This document shows positions 2,892-18,661 of a stretch of 18,661 bases of DNA, one piece after another. This DNA comes from Octopus sinensis. Lineage: Eukaryota. The notes below the pieces were generated by a model, which worked only from the letters and a program-made list of their open reading frames with translations, had not been told where the DNA came from and made no database searches. A program made the translations under genes and the position numbers. Where the stretch lies: the NCBI RefSeq assembly GCF_006345805.1, contig NW_021824445.1, positions 1 through 18,661 on the forward strand. Reading direction: 5' to 3'. The number at the start of each line of letters is the position of its first letter. Position 1 is the stretch's first letter.

Positions 2892-5800
2892 CCGAAGGGA
2901 TGAAAGGCAAAGTCGACCTCGGCGGAATTTGAACCCAGAACGTAACAGTAGACGAAATACCTATTTCTTTACTACCCATAAGGGGATAAACACAGAGAGG
3001 ACAAACAAGGACAGACAAACGGATTAAGTCGACTATATCGACCCCAGTGCGTAACTGGTACTTATTTAATGGACCCCGAAAGGATGAAAGGCAAAGTCGA
3101 CCTCGGCGGAATTTGAACTCATAACGTAACGGCAGACGAAATACCTATTTCTTTACTACCCACAGGGGCTAAACACAGACGGAACAAACAAGGACAGACA
3201 AACGGATTAAGTCGACTATATCGACCCCAGTGCGTAACTGGTACTTATTTAATGGACCCTGAAAGGATGAAAAGGCAAGTCGACCTCGGCGGAAGTTGAA
3301 CTCAGAACGTAACAGCAGACGAAATACCTATTTCTTTATACCCACAAGGTGCTAAACACAGAGAGGACAAACAAGGACAGACAAACGGATTAAGTCGACT
3401 ATATCGACCCCAGTGCGTAACTGGTACTTATTTAATGGACCCCGAAAGGATGAAAAGGCAAGTCGACCTCGCGGAATTTGAACTCATAACGTAACGGCAG
3501 ACGAAATACCTATTTCTTACTACCCACAGGGGCTAACACAGACGGAACAAACAAGGATAGACAAATGGATTAAGTCGACTATATCGACCCCAGTGCGTAC
3601 TGGTACTTATTAATGGACCCCGAAAGGATGAAAAGGCAAGTCGACCTCGGCGGAATTGAACTCAGAACGAACGGGCAGACGAAGTACCTATTTCTTTACT
3701 ACCCACAAGGGTTTAAACACAGACAGGACAAACAAGGACAGACAAACGGATTAAGTCGTCTGTATCGACCCCAGTGCGTAACTGGTACTTATTTAATGGA
3801 CCCCGAAAGGATGAAAGGCAAAGTCGACCTCGCGGAATTGAACTCAGAACGTAACGGCAGATGAAATACCTATTTCTTTACTACCCACAAGGGGCTAAAC
3901 ACAGAGGGGACAAACAAGGACAGACAAACGGATTAAGTCGATTATATCGACCCCAGTGCGTAACTGGTACTTATTTAATGGACCCCGAAAGGATGAAAAG
4001 GCAAGTTGACCTCGGCGGAATTTGAACTCAGAACGTAACGGCAGACGAAATACCTATTTCTTTACTACCCATAAGGGGATGAACACAGACGGGACAAACA
4101 AGGACAGACAAACGAATTAAGTCGACTATATCGACCCCAGTGCGTAACTGGTACTTTTTAATGGACCCCGAAAGGATGAAAGGCAAAGTCGACCTCGGCG
4201 GAATTTGAACTCAGAACGTAAGGGCAGACGAAATACCTATTTCTTTACTACCCACAGGGGCTAACACAGAGAGAGACAAACAAGGACAGACAAACGGATT
4301 AAGTCGACTATATCGACCCCAGTGCGTAACTGGTACTTATTTAATGGACCCCGAAAGGATGAAAAGCAAAGTCGACATCGGCGGAATTTGAACCCAGAAC
4401 GTAACGGCAGACGAAATACCTATTTCTTTACTACCCATAAGGGGATAAACACAGAGGTGACAAACAAGGACAGACAAACGGATTAAGTCGATTATATCGA
4501 CCCCAGTGCGTAACTGGTACTTATTTAATGGACCCCGAAAGGATGAAAGGCAAAGTCGACCTCGGCGGAATTTGAACTCAGAACGTAACGGCAGATGAAA
4601 TACCTATTTCTTTACTACCACAAGGGGCTAAACACAGAGAAGAAACAAGGACAGACAAACGGATTAAGTCGATTATATCGACCCCAGTGCGTAACTGGTA
4701 CTTATTTAATGGACCCCGAAAGAATGAAAAGCAAAGTCGACCTCGGCGGAATTTGAACTCAGAACGTAACGGCAGACGAAATACCTATTCTTTACTACCC
4801 ACAGGGGCTAAACACAGACGGAACAATCAAGGACAGACAAACGGATTAAGTCGTCTATATCGACCCCAGTGCGTAACTGGTACTTATTTAATGGACCACG
4901 AAAGAATGAAAGGCAAAGTCGACCTCGGCGGAATTTGAACTCAGAACGTAACGGCAGACGAAATACCTATTTCTTTACTACCCACAAGGGGCTAAACACA
5001 GAGAGGACAAACAAGGACAGACAAACGGATTAAGTCGTCTATATCGACCCCAGTGCGTAACTGGTACTTATTTAATGAGACCCGAAAGGATGAAAGGCAA
5101 AGTCGACCTCGGCGGAATTTGAACTCAGACGTAAGGGCAGACGAAATACCTATTCTTTACTACCCACAAGGGGCTAAACACAGAGAAGACAAACAAGGAC
5201 AGACAAACGGATTAAGTCGTCTGTATCGACCCCGGTGCGTAACTGGTACTTATTTAATGGACCCCGAAAGGATGAAAGGCAAAGTCGACCTCGGCGGAAT
5301 TTGAACTCAGAACGTAACGGCAGATGAAATACCTCTTTCTTTACTACCCATAAGGGGCTAAACACAGAGAGGACAAACAAGGACAGACAAACCGATTAAG
5401 TCGTCTATAACGACCCTAGTGCGTAACTGGTACTTATTTAATGGACCCCGAAAGAATGAAAAGCAAAGTCGACCTCGGCGGAATTTGAACTCAGAACGTA
5501 ACGGCAGACGAAATACCTATTTCTTTACTACCCAGAAGGGGCTAAACACAGACGGAACAAACAAGGACAGACAAACGGATTAAGTCGTCTATATCGACCC
5601 CAGTGCGTAACTGGTACTTATTTAATGGACCACGAAAGAATTAATGGCAAAGTCGACCTCGGGGGAATTTGAACTCAGAACGTAAGGTCAGACGAAATAC
5701 CTATTTCTTTACTACCCACAAGGGGCTAAACACAGAGAGGACAAACAAGGACAGACAAACGGATTAAATCGTCTGTATCGACCCCAGAGCGTAACTGGTA

Positions 5801-8800
5801 CTTATTTAATGGACCCCAAAAGGATGAAAGGCAAAGTCGACCTCGGCGGAATTTGAACTCAGAACGTAACGGCAGATGAAATACCTATTTCTTTACTACC
5901 CACAAGGGGCTAAACACAGAGAGGACAAACAAGGACAGACAAACGGATTAAGTCGACTATATCGACCCCAGTGCGTAACTGGTACTTATTTAATGGAACC
6001 CGAAAGGATGAAAAGCAAAGTCGACATCGGCGGAATTTGAACCCAGAACGTAACGGCAGACGAAATACCTATTTCTTTACTACCCATAAGGGGATAAACA
6101 CAGAGGTGACAAACAAGGACAGACAAACGGATTAAGTCGATTATATCGACCCCAGTGCGTAGCTGGTACTTAATTTGTCGACTCCGAAAAAACGAAAGGC
6201 AAAGTCGACCTCGGCGGAATTTGAACCCAGAACGTAACGGCAGACGAAATACCTATTTCTTTATAACCCACAGGGGCTAAACACAGACGGGACAAACAAG
6301 GACAGACAAACGGATTAAGTCGTCTGTATCGACTCCAGTGCGTAACTGGTACTTATTTAATGGACCCCGAAATGATGAAAGGCAAAGTTGACCTCGGCGG
6401 AATTTGAACTCAGAACGTAACGGCAGACGAAATACCTATTTCTTTACTACCCATAAGGGGATAAACACAGACGGGACAAACAAGGACAGACAAACGGATT
6501 AAGTCGACTATATCGACCCCAGTGCGTAACTGGTACTTATTTAATGGACCCTGAAAGGATGAAAGGCAAAGGCAACCTCGGCGGAATTTGAACTCAGAAC
6601 GTAAGGGCAGACGAAATACCTATTTCTTTACTACCCACAAGGGGCTAAACACAGAGAAGACAAACAAGGACAGACAAACGGATTAAGTCGTCTGTATCGA
6701 CCCCAGTGCGTAACTGGTACTTATTTAATGGACCCCGAAAGGATGAAAGGCAAAGTCGACCTCGGCGGAATTTGAACTCAGAACGTAAGGGCAGACGAAA
6801 TACCTATTTCTTTACTACCCACAAGGGGCTAAACACAGAGAGGACAAACAAGGACAGACAAACGGATTAAATCGTCTGTATCGACCCCAGAGCGTAACTG
6901 GTACTTATTTAATGGACCCTGAAAGGATGAAAGGCAAAGTCGACCTCGGCGGAATTTGAACTCAGAACGTAACGGCAGAGGAAATACCTATTTCTTTACT
7001 ACCCACAAGGGGCTAAACACAGAGGGGACAAACAAGGACAGACAAACGGATTAAGTCGATTATATCGACCCCAGTGCGTAACTGGTACTTATTTAATGGA
7101 CCCCGAAAGAATGAAAAGCAAAGTCGACCTCGGCGGAATTTGAACTCAGAACGTAACGGCAGACGAAATACCTATTTCTTTAGTACCCACAGGGGCTAAA
7201 CACAGACGGGAAAAACAAGGACAGACAAACGGATTAAGTCGTCTATATCGACCCCAGTGCGTAACTGGTACTTATTTAATGGACCCCGAAAGTATGAAAG
7301 GCAAAGTTGACCTCGGCGGAATTTGAACTCAGAACGTAACGGCAGACGAAATACCTATTTCTTTACTACCCATAAGGGGATAAACACAGACGGGACAAAC
7401 AAGGACAGACAAACGGATTAAGTCGACTATATCGACCCCAGTGCGTAACTGGTACTTATTTAATGGACCCGGAAAGGATGAAAGGCAAAGTCGACCTCGG
7501 CGGAATTTGAACTCAGAACGTAAGGGCAGACGAAATACCTATTTCTTTACTACCCACAAGGGGCTAAACACAGAGAAGACAAACAAGGACAGACAAACGG
7601 ATTAAGTCGTCTGTATCGACCCCAGTGCGTAACTGGTACTTATTTAATGGACCACGAAAGGATGAAAGGCAAAGTCGACCTCGGCGGAATTTGAACTCAG
7701 AATGTAACGGCAGACGAAATACCTATTTCTTTACTACCCACAGGGGCTAAACACAGAGAGGACAAACAAGGACAGACAAACGGATTAAGTCGTCTATATC
7801 GACCCTAGTGCGTAACTGGTACTTATTTAATGGACCCCGAAAGAATGAAAAGCAAAGTCGACCTCGGCGGAATTTGAACTCAGAACGTAACGGCAGACGA
7901 AATACCTATTTCTTTACTACCCACAGGGGCTAAACACAGACGGAACAAACAAGGACAGACAAACGGATTAAGTCGATTATATCGACCCCAGTGCGTAACT
8001 GGTACTTATTTAATGGACCCCGAAAGGATGAAAGGCAAAGTTGACCTCGGCGGAATTTGAACTCAGAACGTAACGGCAGACGAAATACCTATTTCTTTAC
8101 TACCCATAAGGGGATGAACACAGACGGGACAAACAAGGACAGACAAACGAATTAAGTCGACTATATCGACCCCAGTGCGTAACTGGTACTTATTTAATGG
8201 ACCCCGAAAGGATGAAAGGCAAAGTCGACCTCGGCGGAATTTGAACTCAGAACGTAAGGGCAGACGAAATACCTATTTCTTTACTACCCACAAGGGGCTA
8301 AACACAGAGAGGACAAACAAGGACAGACAAACGGATTAAGTCGACTATATCGACCCCAGTGCGTAACTGGTACTTATTTAATGGACCCCGAAAGGATGAA
8401 AAGCAAAGTCGACATCGGCGGAATTTGAACCCAGAACGTAACGGCAGACGAAATACCTATTTCTTTACTACCCATAAGGGGATAAACACAGAGGTGACAA
8501 ACAAGGACAGACAAACGGATTAAGTCGATTATATCGACCCCAGTGCGTAACTGGTACTTATTTAATGGACCCCGAAAGGATGAAAGGCAAAGTCGACCTC
8601 GGCGGAATTTGAACTCAGAACGTAACGGCAGATGAAATACCTATTTCTTTACTACCCACAAGGGGCTAAACACAGAGAAGACAAACAAGGACAGACAAAC
8701 GGATTAAGTCGATTATATCGACCCCAGTGCGTAACTGGTACTTATTTAATGGACCCCGAAAGAATGAAAAGCAAAGTCGACCTCGGCGGAATTTGAACTC

Positions 8801-10435
8801 AGAACGTAACGGCAGACGAAATACCTATTTCTTTACTACCCACAGGGGCTAAACACAGACGGAACAATCAAGGACAGACAAACGGATTAAGTCGTCTATA
8901 TCGACCCCAGTGCGTAACTGGTACTTATTTAATGGACCACGAAAGAATGAAAGGCAAAGTCGACCTCGGCGGAATTTGAACTCAGAACGTAACGGCAGAC
9001 GAAATACCTATTTCTTTACTACCCACAAGGGGCTAAACACAGAGAGGACAAACAAGGACAGACAAACGGATTAAGTCGTCTATATCGACCCCAGTGCGTA
9101 ACTGGTACTTATTTAATGGACCCCGAAAGGATGAAAGGCAAAGTCGACCTCGGCGGAATTTGAACTCAGAACGTAACGGCAGATGAAATACCTAGTTCTT
9201 TACTACCCATAAGGGGATAAACACAGAGGTGACAAACAGGGATAGACACACGGATTAAGTCGTCTATATCGACCCCAGTGCGTAACTGGTACTTATTTAA
9301 TGGACCCCGAAAGGATGAAAAGCAAAGTCGACCTCGGCTGAATTTGAACCCAGAACGTAACGGCAGACGAAATACCTATTTCTTTACTACCCATAAGGGG
9401 ATAAACACAGAGGTGACAAACAAGGACAGACAAACGGATTAAGTCGATTATATCGACCCCAGTGCGTAGCTGGTACTTAATTTGTCGACTCCGAAAGGAA
9501 GAAAGACAAAGTCGACCCCGGCGGAATTTGAACCCAGAACGTCACGGCAGACGAAATACCTATTTCTTTACTACCCACAAGGGGCTAAACACAGAGAGGA
9601 CAAACACGGACAGACAAACGGATTAAGTCGTCTATATCGACCCCAGTGCGTAACTGGTACTTATTTAATGGACCCCGAAAGAATGAAAAGCAAAGTCGAC
9701 CTCGGCGGAATTTGAACTCAGAACGTAACGGCAGACGAAATACCTATTTCTTTACTACCCACAGGGGCTAAACACAGACGGGACAAACAAGGACAGACAA
9801 ACGGATTAAGTCGTCTATATCGACTCCAGTGCGTAACTGGTACTTATTTAATGGACCCCGAAAGGATGAAAGGCAAAGTTGACCTCGGCGGAATTTGAAC
9901 TCAGAACGTAACGGCAGACGAAATACCTATTTCTTTACTACCCATAAGGGGATAAACACAGACGGGACAAACAAGGACAGACAAACGGATTAAGTCGTCT
10001 GTATCGACCCCAGTGCGTAACTGGTACTTATTTAATGGACCCTGAAAGGATGAAAGGCAAAGTCGACCTCGGCGGAATTTGAACTCAGAACGTAACGGCA
10101 GATGAAATACCTATTTCTCTACTACCCACAAGGGGCTAAACACAGAGAGGACAAACAAGGACAGACAAACGGATTAAGTCGTCTATATCGACCCTAGTGC
10201 GTAACTGGTACTTATTTAATGGACCCCGAAAGAATGAAAAGCAAAGTCGACCTCGGCGGAATTTGAACTCAGAACGTAACGGCAGACGAAATACCTATTT
10301 CTTTACTACCCACAGGGGCTAAACACAGACGGAACAAACAAGGACAGCCAAACGGATTAAGTCGTCTATATCGACCCCAGTGCGTAACTGGTACTTATTA
10401 ATGGACCACGAAAGAATGAAAGGCAAAGTCGACCT
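2892..10435 (-). repeat. Tandem satellite array, ~41 copies of a 184-bp monomer derived from a 5'-truncated tRNA-SINE (SINE sense = minus strand)
   Basis: Period measured directly (ggatg at 2898 and 3082; ccccgaaagg at 9121 and 9305). The minus-strand monomer has a B box gagttcaaattcc followed by gaggtcgactttgcctttcatcctttcggggtc...aataagtaccag, which from memory resembles the Meta/MESC-type conserved SINE domain. No A box is seen. Confidence 0.95.
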
Positions 10436-10771: not shown

Positions 10772-11693
10772 ACTTAACTGTATCTATTATTTTATTATTA
10801 TTATTATTATTAATATTAATAGTAATTATTATTGACTTTTATAGATTTATATTTTATGAACTGAACTATGGTTTTCTATTATTATTATTATTTTTCAGGT
10901 ATAGATAGAATATTAATTTAAATAGTAGTGAGCATATATCTCCCTATGTGTTAATTTTTAGAACTATTAGCCAAATATGTAAAATAACTGTGCTTATTAA
11001 TATTAATATATACACTGATATATATTTTATATTTTGTTTTTTTATATATTTTGTTTTATTTTGTTTTGTTTACCTTGCATTAGTGTATCAATGAGTATTG
11101 TATATGTGTAGCAGGATGGAGTTTATGCATAAGTTTTTATATATTACATGTTTATATTTTTATATTTATATGTATATGGAAAAATAATTTTTTCATAATT
11201 TTTTCACAATTATAACATTAAATTCTCTGAAGAGGCCGTGGGGCATCCTTGTTAATGCCTCATTTATACCTGCCTTAATGGCTTATAGGTTAAATGAGGT
11301 ATAACTGCCCTTACTGCCGAAACAGCTGTCAGATATGTTACAATTACATATTATATTTTTATATTTTTATATTTCCAGTTCCTTGTCTATTTATATTTAC
11401 TATATATGTTATATAGCCTTTACTGATATGTAATGGTGTAATAAAGTATTGATTGGGTATCATCTTATGGTTGATGTTTTATTGATTTAAGTATGTTTCT
11501 CCATTTTCTAATTCTGTAGCATAAATTTACGGTAATATTATTACCTTTGCCCAAATAATACAATATGTGAACTAATTGCTTGGTAATTTTTAACATCTAT
11601 GTGTTAGTCTCGTTGGGTACCTATCAAGCAGTATATTGGATATATGTTATCCCATGGTGGGTTGAATTTTCAACCCTCATCTCATTTTATAAC
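10772..11693 (+). mobile_element. AT-rich non-coding repeat remnant carrying a hammerhead ribozyme; probable Penelope-like terminal repeat / retrozyme (boundaries approximate)
   Basis: Very AT-rich segment with the HHR at 11224-11333, ending abruptly in (TA)n at ~11694. It has no credible ORF and occurs once in the window, so its limits are inferred. Confidence 0.45.
11224..11333 (+). ncRNA. Type I hammerhead ribozyme with long stem II and palindromic stem III
   Basis: tct-CTGAAGA(11227-11233)-ggc...gcc-GAAA(11319-11322)-C-agct-GTC(11328-11330)-aga. All core nucleotides are canonical, with a G10.1-C11.1 pair, a GUC triplet and 3-bp stem I tct/aga. Stem III lies in the palindrome ACAGCTGT. 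Confidence 0.85.
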
Positions 11694-11727
11694 CTATATA
11701 TATATATATATATATATAATAAACATA

Positions 11728-11967
11728 ATAAACATAAAGAAGTTATTATGCACGTACGCTGCGAAATATATAATAAACCTTTACATAAATAAATAACGTG
11801 AAATACACGAAGGGACGAACAAAAAGACAAACGGGTCATTCAAAGCCTTCATTCTTCAATCAGAAACTGATCCCTCATCGCAGATTTCGGCTGTTTAATT
11901 CTAAGATCCGCTCCGAATCAGCCAGCCACAGAAGGAAAGAATGCAACGCAACAGAGACGAACATGAA
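11728..11967. repeat. Dispersed repeat, copy 1 of a ~240-bp segment also present at 16086-16289 and 16713-16957
   Basis: Near-identical sequence (…gtgaaatacacgaagggacgaacaaaaagacaaacgggtcattcaaagcc…gaacatgaa) occurs three times in the window. Confidence 0.92.
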
Positions 11968-12368
11968 CACACACACACATATATATATGCATACACACAC
12001 ACACATATATATACATACACCCATACATATATATATACATACACACATACATATATATATATATATGTATATAATAAACCTTTAGATAAATAAATAATAA
12101 TATATATATATATACATACACCACACATATATAACACACACACACACACATATATACATACACACACACACACATATATATATACATACACACATACATA
12201 TATATATACATACACACATACATATATATATATATATGTATATAATAAACCTTTGCAGAAATAAATAATAGCATATATATATATATATACATACACACAC
12301 ACATATATATACATGCACACACACACATATATATACATACACACACACACATATATATACATACACAC

Positions 12369-12399
<31 letters not shown>

Positions 12400-12844
12400 A
12401 TAAACCTTTAGATAAATAAATAATAACATATATATATATATACACACACACATATATATATATATGTATATAATAAACCTTTACATAAATAAATAATAAC
12501 ATATATATATATATACATACACACATATATACACATACACACAAACATATATATACATGCACACACACACATATATATACATACACACACACACATATAT
12601 ATACATACACACACACACACAAACACACATATATATACTTACACACACACACACATATATATATACATACACACACACACACACATATATATACATATAC
12701 ACACACATACATATATACATACACACACACATACATATATACATACACACACACACATATATATATATACATACACGCACACATATATATACATACACAC
12801 ATATATATATATACACATATATATATACATACATACATACATAT

Positions 12845-12892
<48 letters not shown>

Positions 12893-13575
12893 TATACATA
12901 CACACACAGACATATATATACATACACACACACACACCAAACACACATATATATACTTACACACACACACATATATATATACATACACACACAAACACAC
13001 ATTATATACATACACACACACACATATATATATACCTATACACACACACACATATATATACATACACACACACATACATATATACATACACACACACACA
13101 TATATATATACACATACACACACACATATATATATACATACACAAATATATATATATACATATATGTATATACATACACACACACACATATATATACATA
13201 CACAAATACATATATATATATATGTATATATAAACCTTTACATAAATAAATAATAACATATATATATTATACATACACACACACATATATACATACACAC
13301 TACATATATATATGTATATAATAAACCTTTACATAAATAAATAATAACATATATATATACACACACACAATATATACATACACACACATATATATATATA
13401 TACATACACACATACATATATATATATGTATATAATAAACCTTTAGATAAATAAATAATAACATATATATACATATACATACACACACACACAAACACAC
13501 ATATATATACTTACACACACACACACATATATATATATACATACACACACAAACACACATATATATATACATACA
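11968..13575. repeat. Compound (TA)n/(CA)n microsatellite field with 7 embedded copies of a ~35-bp motif
   Basis: Motif gtatataataaaccttta(c/g)ataaataaataataac at about 12070, 12240, 12395, 12468, 13226, 13316 and 13430. Confidence 0.92.
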
Positions 13576-13578
13576 GTG

Positions 13579-13898
13579 AGGGCGCGTGGCTTAGTGGTTA
13601 GGGTATTCGGCTCATGATCGTAAGGTTGTGAGTTCGATTCCCGGCGACGCGTTGTGTCCTTGAGCAAGACACTTTATTTCACGTTGCTCCAGTCCACTCA
13701 GCTGGCAAAAATGAGTTGTACTTGTATTTCAAAGGGTCAGCCTTGTCACTCTCTGTGTCACGCTGATTATCCCCGAGAACTACGTTAAGGGTACACGTGT
13801 CTGTGGAATGCTCAGCCATTTGCACGTTAATTTCACGAGCAAGCTGTTCCGTTGATCGTATCAGCTGGGACCCTCGTCGTCGTAACCGGCGGAGTCTT
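13579..13898 (+). mobile_element. tRNA-derived CORE-type SINE, well preserved, inserted in microsatellite
   Basis: A box tggcttagtgg (13587-13597), B box gagttcgattcc (13630-13641), then CORE-like ttgtgtccttgagcaagacactt. It is flanked on both sides by (TA/CA)n. Confidence 0.88.
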
Positions 13899-14074
13899 TA
13901 TACATACACACACACACATATATATATACATACACACACATACATATATACATACACACACATACATATATACATACACACACACACATATATAATATAC
14001 ATACACACACACATATATATATACATACACACATATATATATATATACATATATATATATACATACATACATAT

Positions 14075-14152
<78 letters not shown>
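13899..14152. repeat. (TA/CA)n microsatellite ending in a long pure (TA)n
   Basis: Directly visible. Confidence 0.95.
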
Positions 14153-14157
<5 letters not shown>

Positions 14158-14910
14158 CATTCAACAATTGAGGGTAAAATTAATTAATTATTAATTAATT
14201 TCACCAAGTGTTCAGTATGCAAAGGGACCATTTAAGGCGAATTCAAATTATTACAATATATAAAAGGGCTTAGTAAAATAATTACTTTGCCGCATACTGA
14301 ACTCATTAGAAATAGCAGCTAAAAAACTTTTTTAAACCATTTCTAATACTTAAGAAAATCTCTCTCATATAGTGTTTGGTCAACTCAACTCACGAAAGTT
14401 TGGGGGTAAGACATCAAAAAATCAAATGCAAAGGTTATTTGAGAACGTACGTTTCAAGATTAGTCATCACGACACTTCTATCATCAGCTCAGAAACTCCT
14501 TGGTTTGGATTTGAAAACACTGAAAGTGAGAGCATACTCTTTCGGCCTCTCATCGCTTTCGAATCTGCTCGTAACTAACAGTGCCAACAAACTCAAACAT
14601 GCAAGCGAAGAATTTCTGCTCTCCCTTTCCACCAGCGTGGGTTAAAATCAACAAACACTCTGCTTATTTCGGTAAAATCCGAAGCATTAATTAGAGGGAG
14701 ATTAATTATAATTTCAACAATTGAGGGTAAAATTAATTAATTATTAATTAATTTCACCAAGTGTTCAGTATGCAAAGGGACCATTTAAGGCGAATTCAAA
14801 TTATTACAATATATAAAAGGGCTTAGTAAAATAATTACTTGCCGCATACTGAACTCATTAGAAATAGCAGCTAAAAAACTTTTTTAAACCATTTCTAATA
14901 CTAAAGAAAA
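14151..14910 (-). repeat. ~553-bp HHR-bearing repeat unit, ~1.4 tandem copies, inverted relative to 14909-16077
   Basis: caacaattgagggt at 14162 and 14715 gives period 553. The sequence is the reverse complement of the block that follows. Confidence 0.93.
14440..14491 (-). ncRNA. Type I hammerhead ribozyme motif (copy in inverted arm)
   Basis: Exact reverse complement of 15279-15330, with tcatcag at 14481-14487 and aacgtacgtttc at 14444-14455. Confidence 0.65.
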
Positions 14911-15278
14911 TGAGTTCAGTATGCGGCAATGTAATTTATTTTACTAAGCCCTTTTATATATTGTAATAATTTGAATTCGCCTTAAATGGTCCTTTGCATA
15001 CTGAACACTTGGTGAAATTAATTAATAATTAATTAATTTTACCCTCAATTGTTGAAATTATAATTAATCTCCCTCTAATTAATGCTTCGGATTTTACCGA
15101 AATAAGCAGAGTGTTTGTTGATTTTAACCCACGCTGGTGGAAAGGGGAGAGCAGAATTCTTCGCTTGCATGTTTGAGTTTGTTGGCACTGTTAGTTACGA
15201 GCAGATCTTCGAAAGCGATGAGAGGCCAAAAGAGTATGCTCTCACTTTCAGTGTTTTCAAATCCAACCAAGGAGTTTC

Positions 15279-15330
15279 TGAGCTGATGATAGAAGTGTCG
15301 TGATGACTAATCTTGAAACGTACGTTCTCA
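15279..15330 (+). ncRNA. Type I hammerhead ribozyme motif
   Basis: tgag-CTGATGA(15283-15289)-25-nt stem II region-GAAA(15315-15318)-C-gtac-GTT-ctca. Stem I is tgag/ctca and stem III lies in the palindrome AACGTACGTT. Atypical features: U.U at 10.1/11.1, weak stem II and a GUU triplet. Confidence 0.65.
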
Positions 15331-15837
15331 AATAACCTTTGCATTTGATTTTTTGATGTCTTTACCCCCAAACTTTCGTGAGTTGAGTTGACCAAACACT
15401 ATATGAGAGAGATTTTCTTTAAGTATTAGAAATGGTTTTAAAAAGTTTTTTAGCTGCTATTTCTAATGAGTTCAGTATGCGGCAAAGTAATTTATTTTAC
15501 TAAGCCCTTTTATATATTGTAATAATTTGAATTCGCCTTAAATGGTCCCTTTGCATACTGAACACTTGGTGAAATTAATTAATAATTAATTAATTTTACC
15601 CTCAATTGTTGAAATTATAATTAATCTCCCTCTAATTAATGCTTCGGATTTTACCGAAATAAGCAGAGTGTTTGTTGATTTTAACCCACGCTGGTGGAAA
15701 GGGGAGAGCAGAAATTCTTCGCTTGCATGTTTGAGTTTGTTGGCACTGTTAGTTACGAGCAGATCTTCGAAAGCGATGAGAGGCCGAAAGAGTATGCTCT
15801 CACTTTCAGTGTTTTCAAATCCAAACCAAGGAGTTTC

Positions 15838-15889
15838 TGAGCTGATGATAGAAGTGTCGTGATGACTAATCTTGAAACGTACGTTCTCA
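15838..15889 (+). ncRNA. Type I hammerhead ribozyme motif (next tandem unit)
   Basis: Identical to 15279-15330. CTGATGA at 15842-15848, GAAA at 15874-15877, predicted cut after 15885. Confidence 0.65.
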
Positions 15890-16085
15890 AATAACCTTTG
15901 CATTTGATTTTTTGATGTCTTTACCCCCAAACTTTCGTGAGTGGAGTTGACCAAACACTATATGAGAGAGATTTTCTTTAAGTATTAGAAATGGTTTAAA
16001 AAAGTTTTTTAGCTGCTATTTCTAATGAGTTCAGTATGCGGCAAAGTAATTTATTTTACTAAGCCCTTTTATATATTATATATAT

Positions 16086-16957
16086 ATATATAATAAACCT
16101 TTACATAAATAAATAACGTGAAATACACGAATGGACGAACAAAAAGACAAACGGGTCATTCAAAGCCTTCATTCTTCAGTCAGAAACTGATCCCTTATCG
16201 CAGATTTCGGCCGTTCAATTCTGAGATCCGCTCCGAATATGCCAGCCACGGAAGGAAAGAATGCAACGCAACAGAGACGAACATGAAACGAAAAGTCTTT
16301 CTTGGAGACAGTAACGGTTAAAAACATGGATGACACAGGCGCCCTATGGCTTTAACACAAAAAGAGAGACACAAAACAATATCAGCAAGCGTGGAAAAAT
16401 AACAACCTTTTCGGTGATAAGACACATGTTGAACAAGTGGGCGATGGAAAGAGAATGGCTGAGGCAGCAAGTCGCAAGAGGGTAGAGAGAGGAGGGGCTA
16501 AGAGAGAGAGGGGACCAAGGAGGGTAGAAGGCGAGGACAGAAGCAGTGACCGAGAGAGAGAGAAGGAATCAGAGAAGGAGCAGTGATCAAGAGAGAGAGG
16601 GAGAGAAGGAATCAGAGAGGCTGGAAGAAAAAGGCGCCAAAACAATTTGGCAACGAAGCAATGGCGAAGGAAAGAAAATAGTTTAAAGACATCGTGCAGG
16701 GGTTTTGATATGATAAACATAAAGAAGTTATTATGCACGTAGGCTGCGAAATATATAATAAACCTTTACATAAATAAATAACGTGAAATACACGAAGGGA
16801 CGAACAAAAAGACAAACGGGTCATTCAAAGCCTTCATTCTTCAGTCAGAAACTGATCCCTCATCGCAGATTTCGGCTGTTTAATTCTGAGATCCGCTCCG
16901 AATCAGCCTGCCACAGAAGGAAAGAATGCAACGCAAACAGAGAACGAAACATGAAAC
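16086..16957. mobile_element. Non-autonomous element or partial tandem: ~200-bp direct repeats (16086-16289 and ~16750-16957) around a ~460-bp purine-rich interior; period 665 bp
   Basis: gtgaaatacacga at 16118 and 16783 gives offset 665. The interior has a GA-rich tract (~16480-16620) and no credible protein. Confidence 0.7.
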
Positions 16958-17568
16958 ACAAACACACATTATATACAAACACACACACACATATATATAC
17001 ATACACACATACATATATATATATGTATATAATAAACCTTACATATATAAATAATAACATATATATTATATATATATAGATATATACAATAACACACACA
17101 CATATATACACATACACACACACATATATATATATATATGTATATAATAACCTTTAGATAAATAAATAATAACATATATATATATACATACACACACACA
17201 ATATATATATGTATATAATAAACATTTGCATAAATAAATAATAACATATATATATATATACATACACACACATATATATATACATGCACACACAACACCA
17301 TATATAATACACACACACACATATATATACATACACACATACATATATATTATTGTATATAATAAACCTTTAGATAAATAAATAATAACATAAATATATA
17401 TATACACACACACACACATATATATACATACACACATACATATATATATATATATATGTATATAATAAGCTTTAGATAAATAAATAATAACATATATATA
17501 TATATACATACACACACACATATATATATATGTATATAATAAACCTTTAGATAAATAAATAATATATT
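16958..17568. repeat. Second compound (TA/CA)n field with 6 embedded copies of the ~35-bp motif
   Basis: Motif at about 17028, 17140, 17212, 17357, 17459 and 17533. Confidence 0.9.
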
Positions 17569-17765
17569 TACCCACTATAGACACCGATATCTACTGGAAA
17601 ATAGCGAACGTAATGAATACGACGCTAATGTATAGCTTCACTGCGTATGTACTATATATACATATACATACATATATATATATACATATACATACATATC
17701 TATATACATATACATATATATATATACCCACTATATACCAGACCACCACAGCAAACAGACCCAGG

Positions 17766-18661
17766 ATGGACACCGCCGGCAACAACGTACACCTCACGTC
17801 GATGCTCCTACTGAACATCAGAGGGCTGCAAACACTCAGTAACAGGACAAAAATCCCGTTCCTGAGAGACTTTGTTGCATGCAATCAAGCCTTATGCATA
17901 GCACTTACGGAAACGCACCTGAAACCGGACATAGCAGATGCGGAGTTACACATACCACAGTATGCTGTACTACGGACCGACAGTAAAGAAAGGAGTCATG
18001 GAGGTGTTGCTATGTACATCCGTGAGGACCTCACACCCCTAGGTCCTCTTGTCATACTCACACTCGGTGTGTGACACCTAATTGTCATATTAAGCAACTT
18101 GATGTAGTTGTGTGGTGCTACATATCGCCCTCCAGATCCCCAAGCCATGTGGGCAAGTTTGAAGACTGCCTTATAAAAATAGGAGAAGTTCTAACCACAT
18201 TAGAACAACACATAAGTGTACTTCTTATGGGAGACTTCAATCTGCTCAATGTCAGATGGCCCGAGGGCCTTTCTCTCCCAGGAATGACAAGATGTGAACG
18301 AGGACAGGCGAGGTACCTCCTGAACCTCATCAACACCCTGTACATGGAGCAGGTAATACTCCAACCACCCAGGGCAGGTAACACACTGGATCTCTGCTTC
18401 ACAAATGACATGGATCTCATCCATAATGTGAAAGTGACACCGACACTACTTTCGGCCCACAACATGGTAGAGCTGACCATGTACGGACCGAAGGAAAGCA
18501 TGGACATACAGCCTACAAGAAACTCTCAGAATCTTTTCAGCTTGAACTTCCATAAGGCAAACTGGAAAAAAATTGAGAAAGGGATCCTCAAACAAATCTG
18601 ACCTGAATATCTTTCCTCGCCAGTCATCGACATGAAACTTCAATAATTCATGTCTGTAATG
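17766..18661 (+). pseudogene. LINE (non-LTR retrotransposon, probably CR1/L2/Jockey group) ORF2 N-terminal apurinic-like endonuclease, frameshifted; continues beyond the window
   Basis: EEP/APE motifs appear in order: LLNIRGL, IALTETHL, LRTD..SHGGVAMYIRE, YRPP (tat cgc cct cca at 18123, in a different frame from the downstream ORF), LMGDFN, QPPRAGNTLDLCFTN, LSAHNMV (SDH with the Asp lost), then NFHKANW. There are several frameshifts at ~18035-18145 and an in-frame TGA at 18599. Confidence 0.92.

What the first reader, a model, noticed from the sequence alone, without database searches (positions are those of the whole stretch)
14151..16077. Tandem ~557-bp non-coding repeat with one hammerhead ribozyme per unit: candidate retrozyme / non-autonomous Penelope-like circular RNA system
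Seen: three identical HHR motifs (14440-14491 minus; 15279-15330 and 15838-15889 plus), one per full unit. Stem III lies in the 10-bp palindrome AACGTACGTT, the units have no coding capacity, and both ends abut (TA)n. Established: Penelope-like element pseudo-LTRs and metazoan non-LTR retrozymes are tandem repeats with type I HHRs whose short palindromic stem III works as a dimer, releasing monomers that can circularise. Inference: a read-through transcript would be cut after 15326 and 15885, releasing a 559-nt monomer. That monomer could circularise and be re-inserted as a multimer by a Penelope RT supplied in trans. I do not recognise this family as described, but could not search.
Basis: partly seen in the sequence, partly recalled or inferred. 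Interest (0 to 1): 0.85.

Follow-up and report, generated by a model that had tools for sequence, protein, structure and literature searches.

The report
Hammerhead retrozyme with Penelope-type insertion ends
This 559-base non-coding repeat, present in thousands of copies in an animal genome, carries a predicted self-cutting hammerhead RNA in every unit and sits in TA microsatellites as back-to-back arrays whose ends match those of Penelope-like jumping genes, so it is likely a new, unusually well-documented member of the known 'retrozyme' parasites.

Summary
Observation confirmed: three identical type I hammerhead motifs, a 559-bp unit and (TA)n at both ends. The locus is a head-to-head insertion (inverted 1.4-unit arm, direct 2.1-unit arm).

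It belongs to a large dispersed family: 7,231 exact hits of one 27-mer. In 87 loci picked by end-region motifs, 148 of 150 arms stop at one of two sites 103 nt apart, 146 abut (TA)n, and 60 of 63 two-armed insertions have one long and one short end. This is the inverted-repeat and 'tail' anatomy of Penelope-like elements (PLEs), with a longer tail.

Sister families keep the hammerhead (compensatory stems, palindromic stem III) and a predicted stem around the end sites. Neptune-like RT+GIY-YIG elements using (TA)n targets occur in the genome, but none shares sequence with the unit.

Cleavage, circles and expression are not shown. This hammerhead looks weak (U·U at the stem II base, GUU site, no Rfam hit), and 5 of 52 arrays spread with an altered core.

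Verdict: a new member of the known animal non-LTR retrozymes, probably in an octopus (recalled motifs). Interest is moderate.

The parts
14151..14911 (-). Inverted arm, about 1.4 units; 5' end at unit position 86; 3' end at the 'long' site (unit ~293, with a 4-nt duplication) running into (TA)n
14909..16080 (+). Direct arm, about 2.1 units; 5' end at unit position 139; 3' end at the 'short' site (unit ~190-195) running into (TA)n
14909..14911 (.). Head-to-head inversion junction with a 3-nt overlap
14440..14491 (-). Type I hammerhead motif, copy 1
15279..15330 (+). Type I hammerhead motif, copy 2; predicted cut after 15326 (GUU)
15838..15889 (+). Type I hammerhead motif, copy 3; predicted cut after 15885
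15327..15885 (+). 559-nt unit between predicted cut sites (candidate monomer/circle); 35% GC; folds as a circle better than 40 shuffles (z -4.7)
15470..15619 (+). Conserved end element: stem 15470-15480/15553-15563 enclosing the short end site (15516), AU-rich hairpin 15568-15600, long end site (15619); the 103-nt 'tail' is 15517-15619
13988..14153 (.). (TA)n target, left
16071..16092 (.). (TA)n target, right

Best explanation
This is a non-coding, multi-thousand-copy tandem retroelement (an animal non-LTR retrozyme) that sits in (TA)n with two fixed 3' ends, and it is likely copied by a Penelope-like RT/GIY-YIG enzyme supplied in trans from RNA that its hammerhead is predicted to cut, probably as a dimer, into 559-nt monomers that would circularise. 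Steps: (1) read-through transcription (inferred). (2) Hammerhead cleavage through the paired palindromes (predicted, about 0.6). (3) Ligation to a circle (inferred from other retrozymes, about 0.5). (4) The enzyme nicks (TA)n and starts cDNA at one of two AU-rich sites in a conserved structure 190 and 293 nt past the cut site (end positions shown; enzyme inferred, about 0.85). (5) Copying runs across unit junctions and stops at variable points (shown). (6) A second, inverted arm arises by fold-back or second priming and ends at the other site (arrangement shown; route inferred).
For: Copy number: 7,231 exact hits of an end-region 27-mer, control 0. Ends: 148 of 150 arms at two sites, 146 of 150 into (TA)n, 60 of 63 two-armed loci with one long and one short end (first set 29 of 32, binomial p 3e-8). 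In 18 of 63 the two arms meet within 15 nt of the same unit position (11 of 32 against 2.8 by permutation). An inverted arm, a tail on one side, junction palindromes and (TA)n bias are described PLE traits (PMC3846280 passages; PMC8557442 passages), and the tail equals the distance between two RT start sites in vitro (PMC11167929). Hammerhead: core columns vary 1.2% against 3.0% elsewhere over 52 arrays; the palindrome is nearly invariant; H17 is U or A. Sister family B has stem I UACG/CGUA, a G-C stem II base and a GUC site, and a weak Rfam Hammerhead_1 match (21 bits, E 0.006, below the 34-bit cut-off). The two palindromes pair in the MFE of a two-unit transcript. Arrays are homogeneous: 0.7% within, 0.9% across arms, 6.1% between. 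5' ends are enriched 1-20 nt past the cut site (15 of 129, expected 5.2, p 2e-4); both arms of L328 meet exactly at it. Neptune-like RT+GIY-YIG ORFs ending in (TA)n are present.
Against: No partner: no blastn or profile link between the unit and any PLE's own 3' region; where an end element lies downstream of a PLE ORF, the four cases inspected have (TA)n between them. The window hammerhead has U.U at the stem II base and a GUU site; its catalytic fold (-1.1 kcal/mol) is not the MFE (-6.6), and in the two-unit MFE stems I and II are not formed as required. Rfam misses family A. 5 of 52 arrays share a core change CUGAUGA to CCGAUGA and still spread. 96 of 150 arms run through the cut site, which needs a circle or uncut RNA. 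The 5'-end peak at the cut site is matched by an equal peak at unit 81-100 (16 of 129, expected 6.0), so it is not specific. In vitro a PLE did not need its hammerhead for insertion, and only 1 of 9 frog retrozyme dimers cleaved.
Confidence: 0.8

Rival explanations
1. A PLE-mobilised non-autonomous element copied from uncut linear read-through RNA of existing arrays; the hammerhead is a weak or dispensable passenger and circles are not the template.
For: Unprocessed RNA was the dominant substrate for a PLE in vitro; U.U mismatch, GUU site and unfavourable fold; 5 of 52 arrays carry an altered core; homogeneous source arrays would also give homogeneous daughters. Two unchecked earlier notes describe similar tandem elements without a ribozyme (leads only).
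Against: The core, the palindrome and covarying stems are kept across families that are otherwise 67% or less alike; there is a modest excess of 5' ends at the cut site; arrays reach 23 full units at 0.8% divergence.
Confidence: 0.35
2. The units are detached pseudo-LTRs of an autonomous PLE that I did not find, and arrays grew locally as satellites by unequal crossing-over (the route discussed in the 2026 preprint).
For: In Xenopus 24 of 57 retrozyme families match known elements, 21 of them PLEs, at pLTR regions. My partner search covered only 150 scored of 5,029 GIY-YIG candidates and 63 held loci.
Against: None of the 87 loci extends into an ORF; multi-unit arms keep the same two ends and the long/short rule, and opposite arms share locus-specific variants, which points to arrays being inserted ready-made.
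Confidence: 0.12
3. An ordinary satellite or foldback DNA repeat with a chance hammerhead-like motif.
For: No Rfam hammerhead hit for family A; the long inverted arms resemble foldback elements.
Against: The two ends differ by a fixed 103 nt, so they are not terminal inverted repeats; 5' ends are variable; a complete type I core with compensatory changes is kept between families.
Confidence: 0.03

Closest known systems
Animal non-LTR retrozymes (Cervera & de la Pena 2020, PMC7229834; parts 2-4 of 6 and passages read), especially axolotl Rtz353/HHR_Amex2
   Same: Low-GC non-coding tandem units with one type I hammerhead each; a 2-bp helix III with tetraloop and U.U at the base of helix II as in HHR_Amex2; a stable predicted circle; thousands of copies; coexisting PLEs.
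   Different: The unit is 559 nt (theirs 170-400). No target duplication can be read inside (TA)n. Fixed PLE-type ends, inverted arms and a tail are not described in the parts read. No RNA data here.
Retrozymes as non-autonomous PLE derivatives (Li, Clavereau & Pollet, bioRxiv 10.64898/2026.07.22.740005; parts 1-3 of 5 read)
   Same: Tandem HHR units within their 51-972 bp range; co-occurrence with Neptune-type PLEs.
   Different: Their link is sequence similarity to pLTRs in frogs, with no mollusc sampled. Here no pLTR similarity was found and the link is the insertion anatomy.
EN+ Penelope-like elements: Neptune, Naiad, Poseidon (PMC8557442 and PMC3846280 passages; PMC11167929 parts 1-2 of 4)
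   Same: 5'-truncated partial tandems, an adjacent inverted copy, a tail on one end, palindromic junctions, (TA)n bias, and a hammerhead upstream of two RT start sites.
   Different: No ORF; the tail is about 103 nt instead of 30-40; the long/short pairing is nearly strict (60 of 63).
Non-autonomous Chlamys PLEs such as MRC1 (PMC8557442 passage)
   Same: Non-coding, multicopy head-to-tail insertions moved in trans.
   Different: Those generally resemble an autonomous family at the 3' end, and most Chlamys lack hammerheads.

Membership tests
Animal non-LTR retrozyme | Short non-coding tandem repeats, low GC, no LTR | tested here: met
   559-bp units, 35% GC, no Pfam match in the two frames tested, arrays of up to 23 full units
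Animal non-LTR retrozyme | A type I hammerhead motif in each unit | tested here: met
   Motif, conservation and covariation; Rfam sees only sister family B, below cut-off
Animal non-LTR retrozyme | Dispersed multi-copy family | tested here: met
   7,231 exact motif hits; about 47 loci in the first 21.5 Mb of contig C1
Animal non-LTR retrozyme | Self-cleavage as monomer or dimer | not testable with these tools
   Folding only; indirect 5'-end excess is not specific
Animal non-LTR retrozyme | Expressed as linear and circular monomers | not testable with these tools
   Only assembled contigs of runs guessed to be RNA were available
Animal non-LTR retrozyme | Target-site duplication longer than 4 bp when present | tested here: inconclusive
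   Ends lie in (TA)n, so a duplication cannot be read
Non-autonomous PLE | Fixed 3' ends with optional tail, variable 5' ends, adjacent inverted copy | tested here: met
   148 of 150 arms at two sites; 63 of 87 loci head-to-head
Non-autonomous PLE | Microsatellite target like Neptune/Naiad | tested here: met
   146 of 150 3' flanks are (TA)n
Non-autonomous PLE | Shared terminal sequence with an autonomous PLE | tested here: inconclusive
   None in 63 loci with PLE ORF hits, a small part of 5,029 candidates
Autonomous PLE | RT + GIY-YIG ORF | tested here: not met
   No PLE protein match in the window; hits in 2 of 124 family-A loci lie outside the arms
Plant LTR retrozyme | Type III hammerhead within LTRs | tested here: not met
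   Type I topology, tandem units

The most novel reading that the evidence does not exclude
A superfamily of hammerhead circles (at least four families, units about 480-600 nt) parasitises a Neptune-type enzyme through a conserved folded RNA element instead of a shared pLTR. Each insertion records rolling-circle reverse transcription from both target ends, one starting or ending at each of two sites 103 nt apart. That would be the clearest natural record of how retrozymes and PLEs integrate, and would give a compact cis-element for testing the PLE cycle.
Probability: 0.3. Interest if true: 0.7.

Novelty: new member of a known kind. Interest (0 to 1): 0.45.

Why it matters
That PLEs mobilise animal retrozymes has so far been argued from co-occurrence and pLTR similarity. 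This family adds insertion-site evidence in numbers: two fixed ends, near-strict long/short pairing, fold-back junctions and (TA)n targets. It also offers a 150-nt conserved element to test with purified PLE protein. Origin of the PLE tail and inverted repeat is an open mechanistic question (PMC8557442), and thousands of young non-coding copies make it tractable. The element class itself is known, so surprise is limited.

Tried and rejected
Rfam: no hammerhead for family A.

Autonomous partner: not found by blastn or nhmmer in GIY-YIG loci. A hammerhead-plus-end-element next to a 781-aa Neptune-like ORF (L061) first looked like its pLTR. Five other long-ORF copies of that family lack it and end earlier at (TA)n, so it is a separate tandem family (D). 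L168 and L268 are also side-by-side insertions.

Second hammerhead-like motif in the unit (about 15768-15810): rejected, because it lacks CUGA in the 12 commonest variants.

Expression: no RNA holder listed on record. Four runs guessed to be RNA hold pieces of the unit as contigs, which cannot show ends, strand or circles; not used as evidence. Four runs under other organism codes hold 80-99% alike pieces, but their nature is not on record, so no host range is claimed.

End-element structure: RNAalifold on 14 diverse copies recovered only the hairpin base (7 pairs, 3 with double changes). The outer stem was recovered on 7 copies and by motif-anchored pairing (13 of 14 with at least 9 of 10 pairs, one of them at a different partner site), which is fitted to the hypothesis. 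Single-sequence z-scores were -6.5 (A), -1.7 (B) and -1.5 (D).

Earlier findings by sequence or in this genome: none.

Full report
OBSERVATION. The topology is type I, with the predicted cut after 15326 and 15885, giving a 559-nt unit. The locus is a head-to-head insertion: an inverted arm 14151-14911 and a direct arm 14909-16080, with a 3-nt overlap and both outer ends in (TA)n. The arms differ by 2-3 substitutions in about 700 nt. The longest ATG frame is 105 aa and the two long frames tested have no Pfam match. Rfam does not detect this hammerhead.

FAMILY. The genome G000 has 2.72 Gb. From recalled SINE and satellite motifs it looks like an octopus; no call confirms this. The unit gave 1,737 candidates, of which 40 were scored, yielding 202 matches. 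Exact patterns give 1,144 and 602 hammerhead cores (controls 0 and 2) and 7,231 copies of an end-region 27-mer (control 0). In 170 full units from 52 arrays, substitutions were 0.7% within arrays, 0.9% between opposite arms and 6.1% between arrays. The nearest unit was in the same array for 124 of 151 units.

ENDS. I took every locus among the first 100 hits of two end-region patterns. Set 1 has 47 loci and 79 arms after dropping 4 neighbouring or duplicated arms. Set 2 has 40 loci and 71 arms after dropping 5 duplicated arms and 4 family-B hits; one locus shared with set 1 was left out, and 7 of the 40 were already among the loci that suggested the rules. Together, 148 of 150 arms end at unit 284-299 ('long', 75) or 186-208 ('short', 73), and 146 run into (TA)n. 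63 of 87 loci are head-to-head, and 60 of these 63 have one long and one short end (29 of 32 and 31 of 31). 5' ends are variable. In 18 of 63 loci both arms start within 15 nt of the same position, as a fold-back would give (11 of 32 against 2.8 expected by permutation). The window itself follows the long/short rule.

These are described PLE traits. An inverted 5'-truncated copy, a 30-40 bp tail on one end and (TA)n bias are in PMC8557442 (passages). A tail on one of the inverted pLTRs and palindromic junctions are in PMC3846280 (passages). In vitro the tail equals the stretch between two internal RT start sites downstream of the hammerhead (PMC11167929, parts 1-2 of 4). Here the tail is about 103 nt.

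SISTER FAMILIES. Family B (~590 bp) matches the unit at 67% only over unit 92-284 and has the same two-end pattern about 103 nt apart. Family C is older, at about 570 bp (1,458 pattern hits). Family D (~477 bp) has ends about 78 nt apart. The shared region is predicted to form a 10-bp stem enclosing the short end site, followed by an AU hairpin before the long site. Support is good for A (z -6.5) but weak for single B and D copies (z -1.7, -1.5). It is partial in alignments: 35 pairs with 9 double changes on 7 copies, only 7 pairs on 14 copies.

HAMMERHEAD. For: core columns vary less than the rest of the unit (1.2% against 3.0%), and H17 is U or A. Stem I changes in pairs between families (UGAG/CUCA, UACG/CGUA, CAUG/CAUG), stem II base pairs change in pairs, and a C-family copy keeps the palindrome with a different loop. 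Family B gives a weak Hammerhead_1 match. The palindromes of two units pair in the MFE. The axolotl HHR_Amex2 has the same U.U and 2-bp helix III and cleaves better as a dimer (PMC7229834). Against: the catalytic fold is about 5.5 kcal/mol above the MFE of the isolated motif, and 5 of 52 arrays share a U4-to-C core change (that U4 matters is recalled knowledge). Only 1 of 9 frog dimers cleaved. 5' ends fall 1-20 nt past the cut site more often than expected (8 of 66, p 0.004; 7 of 63, p 0.014, one of the 7 from the hypothesis set), and L328 folds back exactly at the site. An equal peak at unit 81-100 means this is only suggestive.

ENZYME. The genome has many GIY-YIG loci (5,029 candidates, 150 scored). 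They include several copies of a 781-aa RT+GIY-YIG ORF with the CxxxxCxxC linker described for Neptune/Nematis, ending in (TA)n with a short tail of its own. None of 63 held loci with PLE ORF hits carries the unit or its end element as its own terminus. The partner is therefore inferred, not identified.

MECHANISM. Most likely: transcription, hammerhead cleavage as a dimer, circularisation, priming from nicked (TA)n at one of two AU-rich sites, copying across unit junctions (96 of 150 arms cross the cut site), and a second inverted arm ending at the other site. The ends, target and array structure are shown. PLE mobilisation is strongly inferred (about 0.85). Cleavage (about 0.6) and a circular template (about 0.5) are untested, and uncut linear RNA is the main rival.

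NOVELTY. Non-LTR retrozymes and their proposed PLE dependence are published (PMC7229834, parts 2-4 of 6 and passages; bioRxiv 10.64898/2026.07.22.740005, parts 1-3 of 5). Full-text searches for octopus or cephalopod retrozymes or hammerheads returned no description of this family. Repbase and Dfam could not be searched; the preprint's supplements are closed, and those of PMC8557442 (which list Octopus PLE families) and PMC7229834 were not read. It is a new member of a known kind. What it adds is a longer tail, a near-strict long/short rule and a conserved end element. Interest 0.45.

Noticed in passing
window 2892-10435: 41 tandem copies of a 184-bp unit (93% matches); it resembles a SINE-derived satellite (recalled).
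   Followed up: no
window 16089-16960 and 11725-11973: A 665-bp partial tandem, pyrimidine-rich on the minus strand, with a degenerate hammerhead-like core; its 28-bp end motif recurs about 10 times in the TA/CA tracts 12068-13458 and 17212-17562. It may be another PLE terminal repeat.
   Followed up: partly
window about 11230-11310: A lone hammerhead-like motif with a long stem II and palindromic stem III, seen in the print.
   Followed up: no
window 13563-13900: tRNA-like SINE (weak tRNA hit at 13582-13651, E 0.98).
   Followed up: no
window 17559-18601: Broken APE-type LINE endonuclease frame (PF14529).
   Followed up: partly
L112-L135, L156-L185, L196-L255: Sister tandem families B, C and D with hammerheads and the shared end element; 978 long-stem-II hammerhead pattern hits genome-wide.
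   Followed up: partly
L268:1730-2594: A diverged family-A subfamily whose stem III has an insertion allowing 3 bp plus a tetraloop, possibly active as a monomer.
   Followed up: no
L061:674-5479: Young two-ORF Neptune-like family (479-aa and 781-aa frames) whose 3' UTR holds a degenerate hammerhead-like motif and a tail of about 35 bp.
   Followed up: partly
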